Part shown: one piece after another, positions 22,817-62,652 of the stretch | Numbering within the stretch: position 1 is the stretch's first letter | How the letters are laid out: every line of letters starts with the position of its first letter | From: Lytechinus pictus | Taxonomy: Eukaryota | Direction of reading: 5' to 3' | Assembly: GCF_037042905.1 (NCBI RefSeq) | Contig: NC_087251.1 | Location: 34,226,001 to 34,290,000, forward strand | Length of the DNA stretch: 64,000 bases | Translations under genes and position numbers: made by a program | Notes under the pieces: model-generated | Seen by the model: the letters and a program-made list of their open reading frames with translations, nothing else | Told to the model about the DNA's origin: nothing | The model's database searches: none

Positions 22817-22930
22817 TCAAACACTGAAAGCGCTTGTGAAGAAGAGTCCATGATTGCGACCCATCTTGGCAATGGTAGCGGGCATGGGTGATTGGTAGGT
22901 CTTCTCATACGAGCCCGGGCCAGGAACTTT
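22817..22930 (-). CDS. STPG4: STPG4 last coding exon
   Basis: cattacag|AAA ... GTT TGA; KVPGPGSYEKTYQSPMPATIAKMGRNHGLFFTSAFSV*. Confidence 0.9.
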   Translation of the reverse strand, partial: KVPGPGSYEKTYQSPMPATIAKMGRNHGLFFTSAFSV

Positions 22931-60600: not shown

Positions 60601-62652
60601 CATGAAGGGTGGGGCAGTCTGCGGGAACTGATGGCTTTTCGAGATATGGGAACGAAATTGTCGAATGTCACCAATAACAGCGTTGTCTAATAATTTCAAA
60701 GGCGGACTAGATTATAGCCCAGTAGCACCGCCCTTCCTAAAAATCTTCAATATGCAGATATGAGATCTATTATATTCATGTAAGAGAAATCATACCAGAT
60801 ACCCTACTTATAATTGGAGGAAAATATCTGTGAAAACTAAAACAATTGAATGCTGTGAAAAAAAATGCAATAGTCAATGAAATTGAGATTGAGTGCCAGG
60901 AAATATCAATAAGAGTCAAAGTGCCTATTATGTTCTTCGATTTGAATAAATCATGATGTTAGATACTGTATATTTCAATCTCTTACATATTTGGTCTCAT
61001 GATATACACATTCTCGTAATTGTCCTTTCAAATGCAAAAAAAAAGAGAGGATGTATTCCGCGGCATCGTGAATACTTTCATCACATAACGTGTTTAATTT
61101 CACTTTCAATGTCAAACCAACACAAAACATGACCTGATTCAACTGTCTGCTATGGCCATGCTTATAAATCGAATTAGAGCGTGAATCTTTTCTTTGAAGC
61201 AACACGGCCGGGTAAAATGTATGTAAATTCTTCCCCAGATGTTGCACTGAATATTGATCTGCTGGAATAGACGGTAAACATGAATCTTATGTTACAACAA
61301 AAATGTTTGACAGAAATGGTGCAGCTACTTCCACTTATTTCCATGCCAGTATTTTTTGTGATCCAAACATAGACCATTAACTTTTATTCTTTGATGCTAA
61401 CAATTCAATCATGATTGCTGAAAATGACGAGAAATTATATTGAAAAAAAAATTAATCAATCTAAGAATTAAACCATATACTTTGATTTCTTTAAAATGAA
61501 GTTTATGATTTAATTTTTTTTTCTAAACTTTAGTTTATGGTTTAATTCTTGTATTCATGCATAGACCAATGTCGAGGTGTTATCTAACGATAACACCTCT
61601 ACATTGGCCTAAACAAGAAATGTACATGTACATTAAATGTGTATTTTAATAGTTTAATTTCTGTATTGGTAGATATTTCAAATATGATTGTTGAATTGGT
61701 GAAAATCTTAATCTAAGAGCTATACCATAAACCCAGATTTTGAATAATAAAACCTGTTCATAAATCAAGCGTGCATGCCCATCAAATTTGTTCTTCTCTT
61801 TGTTTGATTATTCCTACAACATAAACAATATGTCATTTATTCTTTCCATCCGCTTTCAAGTCAATCGAATGAAACAGAACAATTCTTATACGATAATTCT
61901 AAACGAACTTAAAATCAAAATAATATTATCCGCCCGGCGGATCCAATACGGTTGTACAAATTCAAGACTTTACAAATCAAATTACAAATATCACTTCTAA
62001 ATATTTCATATACATGTACGTCATTGTTTTAGGTTTACTCACTCTAGTGATATAATATACGTACATTTATTCACAACGAAGAATATAGCATTTGTGAACC
62101 TAAACTATTTTGATAAATTATAAACATTCAAGTTATTGAATTTCTTATGAGTTATTCGATGACAATGTCCAGCCTACAAATTCTTAGTCTTTCTAATGTT
62201 AATGAAAACGACCATTTATATCGCACAGAATGAGAATCCGTTGATATGTCCAGTTAACTAATATTTAGAAATTAATCTCCTTCCACACAATAGATGGGCA
62301 AATATTGTCTAGTATCAATTTCATATCTATTTTAATCGACATAGTACAACGTTCTTACAAATTGCGCGAAGGAATATTGAAGCGTTTTGTAGTTCACAGA
62401 CGGCATGATATCTTCACTTAAGAGAAAAGCAAACTTTGCCTGAAATTGATCCATGCAATTTTATTACCAGCCCATTCAGTAAAGTTTACAGACGGCAAAA
62501 TTGCCATGATATACCGAGGAATCGAATTGAAGGTAGGAAACCTAATATTGCCCGCCCTGAAAAAGAACGATAAAAGAATCCCCGTCTTTCTCAATTGGTC
62601 ACTATAAATGTTTGAAAGAACGAAAAAAATATGGAACAGGTTCACTTACCAT
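36647..62652 (-). CDS. CaM: calmodulin; complement(join(36647..36675,37180..37295,37654..37780,46501..46644,49760..49790,62650..62652)), 149 aa
   Basis: Exon lengths 3+31+144+127+116+29 = 450 nt, all GT-AG introns. [149 protein letters not shown]. Confidence 0.97.
37180..37295 (-). CDS. CaM: calmodulin exon 5
   Basis: acaatcag|T GCT GCA ... GAA G|gtatgc. Confidence 0.97.
37654..37780 (-). CDS. CaM: calmodulin exon 4
   Basis: tctttag|GT AAC GGA ... TTC ATC AG|gttagt. Confidence 0.97.
38915..39795 (-). mobile_element. hAT-like non-autonomous element, complete (same family as 27214)
   Basis: TIR cagaggcgtcgatcc / ggatcgacgcccctg; perfect 8-bp TSD aaaaggag. Confidence 0.92.
40541..40554. promoter_or_regulatory. 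RFX X-box candidate in calmodulin intron 3, next to an ETS-like site
   Basis: GTTACCATGGTGAC; accggaagt at ~40488. Confidence 0.55.
41294..41884 (+). mobile_element. Kolobok-like MITE with TTAA TSD (same family as 28878)
   Basis: ttaa|aggtcaagtccact ... ggacttgtcct|ttaa. Confidence 0.88.
43600..43758. mobile_element. PIF/Harbinger-like palindromic MITE, CAG flanks
   Basis: gtttcataaagctgttcgtaagttaagagcgac pairs with gtcgctcttaacttacgaacagctttatgaaac. Confidence 0.8.
46203..46400 (+). mobile_element. tRNA-derived SINE
   Basis: A box ttgctcagtcgg, B box ggttcgattcc, then a SINE body (gtgccctttggtaaggcatttatcctc) and an A-rich tail; no complete tRNA cloverleaf. Confidence 0.8.
46501..46644 (-). 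CDS. CaM: calmodulin exon 3
   Basis: tttcag|AG TTC AAG ... GAT G|gtatgt. Confidence 0.97.
46901..47032. mobile_element. PIF/Harbinger-like MITE inserted into a SINE remnant
   Basis: ctg|gggcccgttgcataaaactttttacctgagaaaactc pairs with gagttttctgaggtaaaaagttttatgcaacaggccc|cag; immediately after B box ggttcgatccc. Confidence 0.8.
49760..49790 (-). CDS. CaM: calmodulin exon 2
   Basis: cccacag|GCG GAT CAG CTC ... GCA G|gtatgt; [10 protein letters not shown]. Confidence 0.95.
50595..51075. repeat. tandem repeat, ~100-bp unit, 4-5 copies
   Basis: gttatcattcaacatgttcaaaacactcacaaacatgcttgtgtgttgaatgtatg...ggttcgtgatctttga recurs. Confidence 0.9.
51883..56401. mobile_element. 4.5-kb non-autonomous foldback DNA transposon, Academ-like
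   Basis: Termini TAGT...ACTA with 3-bp TSD gta (51880-51882, 56402-56404); ~1-kb inverted arms (51883-52866, ~55410-56401) built of ~164/328-bp internal repeats; no intact transposase ORF. Superfamily inferred from termini and TSD. Confidence 0.85.
53869..54347. mobile_element. Kolobok-like MITE nested in a SINE remnant inside the foldback element
   Basis: ttaa|agggaagttcaacctga ... gggtgaactccccttt|ttaa; SINE-like sequence on both sides. Confidence 0.65.
56545..57509. mobile_element. gcgagcgcgaagcgcgag-family element with one TIR visible
   Basis: Tandem ~120-bp units; ends ccgtagttacgcgactg. Confidence 0.7.
57703..60056. mobile_element. hAT-like MITE carrying a nested 2.1-kb insertion
   Basis: TIR caggggcggaaatc / gatttccgcccatg; perfect 8-bp TSD ggaggggg. 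Confidence 0.8.
57740..59831. mobile_element. nested hAT-like element with many gcgagcgcgaagcgcgag units
   Basis: caggggcggatcc ... ggtccgcctacg; gggaca on both flanks (imperfect TSD). Confidence 0.75.
60185..60425. repeat. 29-bp minisatellite, ~8 copies
   Basis: (tccacaaagactgatggagggtggagcgt)n. Confidence 0.95.
62650..62652 (-). CDS. CaM: calmodulin exon 1 coding part (ATG only)
   Basis: gagatATG|gtaagt, a consensus donor; an ATG-only first exon is typical of animal calmodulins; promoter-like sequence lies upstream. Confidence 0.75.

What the first reader, a model, noticed from the sequence alone, without database searches (positions are those of the whole stretch)
22817..62652. Calmodulin-STPG4 tandem pair matches the human CALM2-STPG4 arrangement (possible ancient microsynteny)
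Seen in the sequence: calmodulin lies directly upstream of STPG4 on the same strand, with about 6 kb between the calmodulin stop (36647) and the STPG4 ATG (30531). From memory of the human genome, STPG4/C2orf61 lies immediately downstream of CALM2 on 2p21 in the same orientation, and a readthrough transcript is annotated there. Inference: a pair kept since the echinoderm-chordate split suggests shared cis-regulation or co-transcription linking Ca2+ signalling to a sperm/cilia protein.
Basis: partly seen in the sequence, partly recalled or inferred. Interest (0 to 1): 0.75.

Follow-up and report, generated by a model that had tools for sequence, protein, structure and literature searches.

The report
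Ancient calmodulin–STPG4 gene neighbours
In this sea urchin the calmodulin gene sits just upstream of the sperm-tail-repeat gene STPG4, as in vertebrates and probably in molluscs and worms, so it is one more very old gene pair of a well-known kind, with two separately transcribed genes rather than one shared message.

Summary
The window is Lytechinus pictus. A six-exon calmodulin lies 6,115 nt upstream of a six-exon, 268-aa STPG4 on the minus strand, and a tree confirms the STPG4 ortholog. The pair looks older than proposed. A sturgeon gene model fuses calmodulin to STPG4 in this order. In a bivalve the two genes are three locus tags apart, and in an annelid they share a 1.4-Mb scaffold. A 2013 microsynteny table already lists calmodulin–[unnamed gene]–TPR gene in amphioxus and Capitella; I could not prove the unnamed gene is STPG4. 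A tunicate seems to have lost the link. RNA contigs give STPG4 its own 5′ end about 2.6 kb past the calmodulin 3′ UTR. No readthrough was seen, though that test is weak, and a vertebrate-type fusion would be out of frame here. Three RFX-like boxes (STPG4 start, calmodulin 3′ UTR, intron 3; p≈0.03) hint at shared ciliary regulation; passive retention is nearly as likely. It is a new member of a known kind (about 600 such pairs). The scan had not noted it before.

The parts
62650..62652 (-). Calmodulin coding exon 1 (ATG only)
   Evidence: ATG-only first exon is also reported for abalone CaM genes
49760..49790 (-). Calmodulin exon 2 (31 nt), after a 12.9-kb intron
46501..46644 (-). Calmodulin exon 3 (144 nt)
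   Evidence: EF-hand
37654..37780 (-). Calmodulin exon 4 (127 nt); the following intron interrupts codon 102 (phase 2)
37180..37295 (-). Calmodulin exon 5 (116 nt)
36647..36675 (-). Calmodulin exon 6, coding part with stop
   Evidence: RNA contig starts at the exon edge 36675 (record 15)
33370..36646 (-). Probable long calmodulin 3' UTR (about 3.3 kb, contains an interspersed repeat at about 34030-34680); the end is approximate
   Evidence: run X15 records 12-15 and depth table
30792..33369 (.). Spacer of about 2.6 kb between calmodulin 3' end and STPG4 5' end; signal only over repeats
   Evidence: depth table
30532..30791 (-). STPG4 5' UTR / own transcript start region
   Evidence: contigs end at 30773 and 30791; an echinoid transcript L001 aligns from 30723 at 71% identity
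30397..30531 (-). STPG4 coding exon 1
28333..28653 (-). STPG4 exon 2 (321 nt)
24813..24886 (-). STPG4 exon 3
24415..24469 (-). STPG4 exon 4
23425..23532 (-). STPG4 exon 5
22817..22930 (-). STPG4 exon 6 with stop; holds the best SHIPPO repeat match
30781..30794 (.). RFX X-box-like palindrome at the STPG4 5' end (matches the relaxed pattern only)
   Evidence: consensus recalled
36573..36586 (.). RFX X-box-like palindrome in the calmodulin 3' UTR, about 60 nt after the stop (strict pattern)
40541..40554 (.). RFX X-box-like palindrome in calmodulin intron 3 (strict pattern)

Best explanation
Calmodulin and STPG4 are two independent, head-to-tail transcription units whose adjacency goes back at least to the last common bilaterian ancestor. 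They are a surviving piece of a larger ancient neighbourhood (calmodulin, an intervening gene, a TTC7-like TPR gene, RPS27A, MTIF2, an MSK-like kinase) that has been eroding in most lineages. Shown: adjacency and orientation in the urchin and in a sturgeon model; a separate STPG4 5' end; near-adjacency in a bivalve. Inferred: STPG4 is a ciliary/germ-line RFX target with an X-box at its own start. Further RFX elements inside the calmodulin gene (3' UTR, intron 3), together with a spacer of only about 2.6 kb holding a terminator and a promoter, would make breaks between the two genes rare and mildly harmful. The pair therefore outlasts its neighbours; in the urchin CCDC32, not TTC7, follows STPG4. 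I put the bilaterian age at about 0.85 and this regulatory mechanism at about half of that.
For: Orthology: 42% identity over 214 aa to mandrill STPG4, E 4e-45. One clade at 99/99 apart from 5 other SHIPPO proteins, with ambulacrarian, chordate, cnidarian and most spiralian rows grouped as expected. Vertebrates: Acipenser model RXM34429.1 = calmodulin N-terminal part + STPG4, 1 of 294 STPG4-search proteins tested; cattle order TTC7A, STPG4, CALM2. Bivalve Solemya: STPG4 KAL5009274 / tag 014855 and a model ending in a calmodulin 98% identical to the window's, KAL5009277 / tag 014858, on the same chromosome. Annelid Paralvinella: tags 17g04000 and 17g04049 on one 1,413,354-nt scaffold. Haliotis rubra: one 3.39-Mb scaffold. 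Overall 10 of 13 comparable invertebrates share a contig or chromosome. Lingula: CaM XM_013526062 converts with a recalled XM-XP offset to an accession 9 away from STPG4 XP_013381507. Simakov 2013 table: amphioxus Y-CaM-X-TPR and Capitella TPR-X-CaM-Y within 21 kb. RNA: STPG4 contigs end at 30773 and 30791; depth is 0-1.3 in the non-repeat spacer bins of run X15. X-boxes: strict pattern 3 sites against a mean of 0.42 (3 of 300 shuffles reach it); 11 of 360 permuted palindromes reach the 4 sites of the palindromic version.
Against: No other genome could be read directly. The protostome evidence rests on accession numbering and contig lengths, with strand and intervening genes unknown. Gene X of the 2013 table is unnamed and could be CCDC32 or another gene; the JGI ids of STPG4 were not found as gene ids in the table, and the amphioxus CaM-X block does not link to a human block. 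In 7 of the 10 same-contig species only the chromosome is shared, which macrosynteny predicts; Mya and Pinctada models are about 990 and 189 accessions apart. Clavelina has STPG4 and a tandem calmodulin model on different chromosomes. Ylistrum and B. floridae CaM-like models are on other contigs. No calmodulin hit was found in the roughly 3.4 kb held upstream of an ascidian-like STPG4. Nematostella is absent from the 2013 cluster. The X-box excess is modest, the consensus is recalled, the relaxed pattern was widened after I saw the STPG4 site, and the ascidian-like loci show no X-box. Conserved pairs are enriched for head-to-head, not head-to-tail, orientation.
Confidence: 0.45

Rival explanations
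1. Passive relic. The pair is ancestral but has no functional tie; it survives because the spacer is short and these lineages rearrange slowly, like the other members of the same neighbourhood.
For: The whole calmodulin neighbourhood, mostly housekeeping genes, is conserved out to sponge and placozoan in the 2013 table. The orientation is head-to-tail. The RNA signals of the two genes do not track each other. The link is apparently lost in a tunicate. The motif excess is only p about 0.03.
Against: Irimia 2012 found almost no pairs kept in four or more lineages after randomising gene order (0.015 per replicate), although that null does not model slow erosion. In the urchin the break fell on the far side of STPG4, and TTC7-like, RPS27A and MTIF2 genes form their own block in S. 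purpuratus.
Confidence: 0.35
2. The pair is only deuterostome-old, or the protostome proximity is loose macrosynteny plus chance.
For: The protostome evidence is indirect. Molluscs carry many calmodulin copies, which raises the chance of a near hit. Several species show the same chromosome only.
Against: Solemya tags are 3 apart for a 98%-identical calmodulin (at most about 0.8% by chance even given the same chromosome, which holds at least 760 tags). Paralvinella shares a 1.4-Mb scaffold. Capitella has the mirrored four-gene order of amphioxus. The Lingula accession distance points the same way (offset recalled).
Confidence: 0.1
3. Co-transcription. A readthrough or conjoined calmodulin-STPG4 RNA, or a fusion protein, is the conserved function.
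For: Short spacer and same strand. A fused sturgeon model joins the vertebrate calmodulin exon boundary to STPG4 in frame. A human readthrough annotation is recalled. In run X15 exon 2 depth (42) exceeds exon 1 depth (28), leaving room for a minor upstream exon.
Against: STPG4 has its own 5' UTR and start in two contig runs and in another echinoid. No calmodulin-to-STPG4 joint is among the 15 joints shown (184 were hidden). In the urchin, calmodulin exons 2-5 end in phases 1, 1, 2, 1 and STPG4 exon 2 starts in phase 0, so the vertebrate-type fusion is out of frame. The sturgeon model is a singleton cluster from a draft assembly. No paper describing such a transcript was found.
Confidence: 0.07

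Closest known systems
Conserved ancestral microsyntenic pairs (CAMPs), Irimia et al. 2012, PMC3514665
   Same: Unrelated neighbouring genes kept within a few genes of each other across several animal phyla; short spacer.
   Different: Head-to-tail rather than the enriched head-to-head class; neither gene is a developmental transcription factor. The main text does not mention calmodulin or C2orf61. The supplementary pair list could not be read, so the pair may already be in it.
Microsyntenic cluster with blocks 526/527/1515/3923/1425 in Simakov et al. 2013, PMC4085046, supplementary file 4
   Same: Canonical calmodulin followed by one unannotated gene and a TPR gene (TTC7 by my inference) in amphioxus and, mirrored, in Capitella; the cluster is classed 'ancient' and includes Trichoplax and Amphimedon.
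   Different: The middle gene is unnamed there and C2orf61 occurs in none of the 7 files. In this window CCDC32 follows STPG4 and no TPR gene was identified.
Vertebrate TTC7A-STPG4-CALM2 locus
   Same: Same two genes and order (cattle list; sturgeon fused model).
   Different: The vertebrate calmodulin boundary in the fused model falls after residue 95, against codon 102 in the urchin; TTC7 is not adjacent in the urchin. The human readthrough is recalled and has no counterpart in the urchin RNA laid.
SHIPPO-repeat (PF07004) proteins such as ODF3, STPG1, STPG2
   Same: PG-rich repeats; the STPG4 profile hits a 476-aa 'Sperm-tail PG-rich repeat' chain in PDB 9y6s and 9e5c.
   Different: STPG4 is a separate clade and no full-length STPG4 chain is in the PDB copy. 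The mouse protein GSE (equated with STPG4 from memory) is reported as a nuclear maternal factor (PMC3613368 abstract), so a ciliary role is inferred, not shown.

Membership tests
STPG4 / C2orf61 orthologs | Full-length collinear similarity and best match to vertebrate STPG4 | tested here: met
   (42% over 214 aa, E 4e-45)
STPG4 / C2orf61 orthologs | One clade apart from other SHIPPO proteins | tested here: met
   99/99 with 5 outgroups (long branches warned)
STPG4 / C2orf61 orthologs | SHIPPO repeat PF07004 | tested here: met
   22.5 bits against a cut-off of 20
Canonical calmodulin | 149 aa, four EF-hands, over 90% identical to other animal calmodulins | tested here: met
   (96-98% to bivalve, tunicate and sponge copies)
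CAMP (Irimia 2012) | Two non-paralogous genes | tested here: met
CAMP (Irimia 2012) | [quoted passage not shown] | tested here: inconclusive
   Direct for echinoderm; fused model and gene list for vertebrates; tag distance for a mollusc. Annelid, brachiopod and amphioxus are likely but indirect; the tunicate appears broken
Co-regulated CAMP subclass | Head-to-head orientation or bidirectional promoter | tested here: not met
   head-to-tail
Co-regulated CAMP subclass | Correlated expression | tested here: inconclusive
   4 runs only; contig depth is a poor measure; signals did not track each other
Genomic regulatory block | Target is a developmental transcription regulator | tested here: not met
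   neither gene is one
Genomic regulatory block | Enhancers for one gene lie inside the neighbour | not testable with these tools
   only motif matches; no orthologous genomic DNA, no ATAC or 3C data
Readthrough / conjoined gene | Transcripts joining exons of both genes | tested here: inconclusive
   none among 15 joints shown of 199; STPG4 has its own start
Readthrough / conjoined gene | Conserved in-frame fusion | tested here: not met
   splice phases differ between the urchin and the sturgeon model

The most novel reading that the evidence does not exclude
Since the bilaterian ancestor, the calmodulin gene has carried RFX enhancers in its intron and 3' UTR that drive both calmodulin and the downstream STPG4 in ciliated cells and sperm. 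This would be an ancient cilia regulatory unit in which a universal Ca2+ sensor gene hosts enhancers for a non-developmental target, and it would explain why CALM2 kept STPG4 after the vertebrate genome duplications.
Probability: 0.2. Interest if true: 0.6.

Novelty: new member of a known kind. Interest (0 to 1): 0.33.

Why it matters
Calmodulin proteins are almost invariant, so duplicates are hard to assign by sequence. A single-copy neighbour kept since early bilaterians marks which copy in sea urchins, molluscs or amphioxus sits at the ancestral locus, and it makes CALM2 the vertebrate copy with the ancestral downstream neighbour. If the RFX boxes are functional, the pair gives a simple testable case of cilia-type regulation holding genes together. 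It would also suggest that the conserved role of STPG4 is ciliary or flagellar rather than the zygotic demethylation role reported in mouse. Without that, it is one of several hundred old gene pairs and would not surprise a comparative genomicist.

Tried and rejected
No genome of the window is held, and the records behind the metagenome loci are not held, so no flanks beyond the stored loci could be read. The metagenome scan gave 6 loci from 253 pattern matches: one echinoid transcript, one brittle-star-like piece and four ascidian-like pieces, none with a calmodulin hit. Only about 3.4 kb upstream of the first exon was held, so this is weak. The calmodulin search (120 of 5,808 hits listed) returned mostly fused or aberrant models, because ordinary 149-aa calmodulins were not among the top rows; the species comparison is biased by this. 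M. galloprovincialis was dropped from the count of 13 because its contigs come from different assemblies. Vertebrate CALML-type rows and species without an STPG4 row were not counted. No listed holder of the STPG4 stretch is on record as RNA; the splice junction in X1 shows it is RNA-derived. In raw-read runs X19 and X21 (about 6% read) both genes were barely covered, and human-like reads may be filtered. Rfam: 0 matches. Pfam and Atlas could not name the gene at the left end. Irimia 2012 supplements were unreadable. Simakov 2015 supplements had 0 occurrences of the five terms in 2 files. Guessed Capitella accessions were found in no paper. No complex or structure prediction was run, because I make no claim that the proteins bind. 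Rejected: two tandem calmodulin genes in the window (only one set of exons), and the idea that the 268-aa protein is another SHIPPO paralog.
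Full report
Observation. The window is 64 kb of AT-rich animal DNA. Exon 2 of the downstream gene is 100% identical to RefSeq 'protein STPG4-like' of the sea urchin Lytechinus pictus. Splicing by coordinates gives a 149-aa calmodulin from six exons (62652 to 36647) and a 268-aa STPG4 from six exons (30531 to 22817). Both are on the minus strand, all introns are GT-AG, and 6,115 nt separate the calmodulin stop from the STPG4 ATG. Only one set of calmodulin exons is present. 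The next gene beyond STPG4 is a convergent CCDC32 (PF14989).

Orthology. A profile of five echinoderm proteins found 169 relatives. The 120 listed are named STPG4/C2orf61 or are unnamed, and come from echinoderms, hemichordates, chordates, spiralians and cnidarians; no named ecdysozoan is among them. The urchin protein is 42% identical over 214 residues to mandrill STPG4. In a tree of 38 rows the 33 STPG4 rows form one group (99/99) apart from five other SHIPPO proteins, with long-branch warnings for the outgroups. Short vertebrate-like models that skip internal parts break at positions matching two urchin exon boundaries, which suggests shared introns (inference). The refutation 'not the ortholog' fails.

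Vertebrates. Papers list CALM2, STPG4 and TTC7A in one human region (PMC12406856 and PMC7756535, passages). They give the order TTC7A, STPG4, CALM2, EPCAM, MSH2 in a 0.5-Mb cattle interval (PMC12828016, table passages). A search of 1.8 billion representatives (150 of 1,309 hits listed) gave one protein with calmodulin at the N-terminus and STPG4 behind it, 1 of 294 tested. It is a singleton model of the sturgeon Acipenser ruthenus. I read it as a gene-prediction fusion; it shows calmodulin upstream and on the same strand in a ray-finned fish. Human strand, distance and readthrough annotation remain recalled; the gene id I remembered appears in one paper only as 'Unknown' (PMC8145808, passages).

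Protostomes. No animal genome could be read, so I compared contig lengths and accession numbers. Of 13 invertebrates with both an STPG4 row and a calmodulin or calmodulin-like row, 10 share a contig or chromosome. Three are informative at fine scale. In the bivalve Solemya velum, STPG4 is tag 014855 (KAL5009274) and a model ending in a calmodulin 98% identical to the window's is tag 014858 (KAL5009277). In the annelid Paralvinella, tags 17g04000 and 17g04049 lie on one 1.41-Mb scaffold. Haliotis rubra has both on one 3.39-Mb scaffold. Seven share only a chromosome, as macrosynteny predicts; in Mya and Pinctada the listed models are about 990 and 189 accessions away. Three differ: Clavelina (a tandem canonical calmodulin model on another chromosome), Ylistrum and B. 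floridae (divergent calmodulin-like models). For the brachiopod Lingula, Table 2 of PMC6171432 gives calmodulin XM_013526062. With an XM-XP offset recalled from memory this is 9 records from STPG4 XP_013381507. Positional numbering is an assumption throughout.

Prior catalogues. The microsynteny table of Simakov 2013 (PMC4085046; passages and rows of supplementary files 2, 4 and 7) lists amphioxus scaffold_624 as unannotated gene Y, calmodulin, unannotated gene X, a TPR gene, ubiquitin/RPS27A and an MTIF2-type GTPase. Capitella scaffold_88 has TPR gene, X, gene 1511215, Y within 21 kb, and 1511215 is canonical calmodulin. The cluster includes Trichoplax and Amphimedon, is classed 'ancient', and lacks Nematostella. 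X stands where STPG4 stands in vertebrates. No call ties X to STPG4, however, and CCDC32 is an alternative. That the TPR gene is TTC7 is my inference from context and linkage group. Irimia 2012 (PMC3514665; abstract, passages, part 1 of 7) defines 595 unrelated ancient pairs, enriched for head-to-head orientation. Its main text does not name this pair, and its supplement was unreadable and may list it. Nine searches found no paper describing the calmodulin-STPG4 linkage; subscription journals are mostly missing from the library.

Transcription. Four runs were laid on 28200-37900. Contigs of X1 and X15 carry STPG4 exon 1 with a 5' UTR ending at 30773 and 30791, and X1 shows the exon 1-2 splice. 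A transcript of another echinoid aligns from 30723. X15 covers the calmodulin 3' UTR down to about 33370; the non-repeat spacer bins then have depth 0-1.3. The real gap between the transcripts is thus about 2.6 kb. X1 has STPG4 at depth 40, while 4 of 8 calmodulin UTR bins are empty, including the two nearest the stop. In the raw-read runs STPG4 exon bins have depth 0-1.75 and the calmodulin bins 35328-36947 have none. The tool warns that contig depth is a poor measure and that holes prove nothing, and 184 of 199 joints were hidden, so rare spliced readthrough is not excluded. A conserved fusion is unlikely. Urchin calmodulin exons 2-5 end in phases 1, 1, 2, 1 and STPG4 exon 2 begins in phase 0, so the join in the sturgeon model cannot be in frame here. 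No IQ motif was found.

Motifs. A recalled RFX X-box consensus matches at 40541 (calmodulin intron 3), 36573 (calmodulin 3' UTR) and 8321. A slightly relaxed form, chosen after I had seen the site, adds 30781, exactly at the STPG4 5' end. The strict form gives 3 sites against a mean of 0.42, and 3 of 300 shuffles reach 3. Of 360 permuted palindromes, 11 reach the 4 sites of the palindromic version. The ascidian-like loci have none. That RFX drives ciliary genes and that calmodulin is an axonemal component is general knowledge, not tested here. The STPG4 profile hits only another sperm-tail PG-rich protein in the PDB. The mouse protein GSE, equated with STPG4 from memory, is described as a nuclear maternal factor (PMC3613368, abstract).

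Verdict. The pair is real, probably bilaterian-ancestral (about 0.85), and made of two separately transcribed genes inside an old calmodulin neighbourhood that was already catalogued without naming STPG4. The most likely reason for retention is a short, crowded spacer plus RFX elements inside calmodulin (0.45). Next come passive survival (0.35), a younger or looser link (0.1) and functional readthrough (0.07). It is a new member of a known kind, useful as a marker of the ancestral calmodulin locus; interest 0.33. The scan's own notes held nothing on this pair.

Noticed in passing
window 37296-37653: The calmodulin intron at codon 102 (phase 2) differs from the vertebrate boundary after residue 95 seen in the sturgeon model, and abalone and ascidian genes have no intron in this exon (PMC6171432). 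This suggests an independent intron gain in the echinoid line.
   Followed up: partly
window 33370-37900: This calmodulin copy is nearly silent in two raw RNA runs and patchy in a third. Sea urchins are reported to have two calmodulin genes, so this may be the more restricted paralog.
   Followed up: partly
window 13389-17356 (+): CCDC32 gene (two coding exons found), convergent with STPG4, in the place TTC7A occupies in vertebrates.
   Followed up: partly
window 4232-4522 (-): Truncated histone H2B-like reading frame (Pfam Histone, E 7e-14), apparently a pseudogene fragment inside an intron of the left-hand gene.
   Followed up: no
window 3361-8977 (+): Probable last exons of an unidentified protein-coding gene; Pfam and Atlas gave no name.
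   Followed up: partly
window 51940-52865 and 55417-56354: Two tandem arrays of a 328-329-nt unit (92-93% matches) in opposite orientation about 2.5 kb apart in calmodulin intron 1, resembling the arms of a foldback-type element.
   Followed up: no
window about 42490-42550 and 40480-40560: Two promoter-like spots inside calmodulin intron 3, seen by eye (YY1-like plus E-box motif; X-box plus ETS-like motif; motifs recalled). They could be internal promoters or enhancers.
   Followed up: no
proteins P0121, P0123 (S. purpuratus): Two STPG4 models with accessions about 400 apart on one chromosome; duplication or unmerged haplotype.
   Followed up: no
proteins P0304, P0344, P0347: Divergent full-length STPG4-like proteins (28-37% identity) of unknown origin; they could extend the family to fast-evolving or non-animal lineages.
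   Followed up: no
protein P0273 (Paralvinella): STPG4 model fused to a downstream B-box/NHL (TRIM-like) protein, suggesting a different same-strand downstream neighbour in this annelid.
   Followed up: partly
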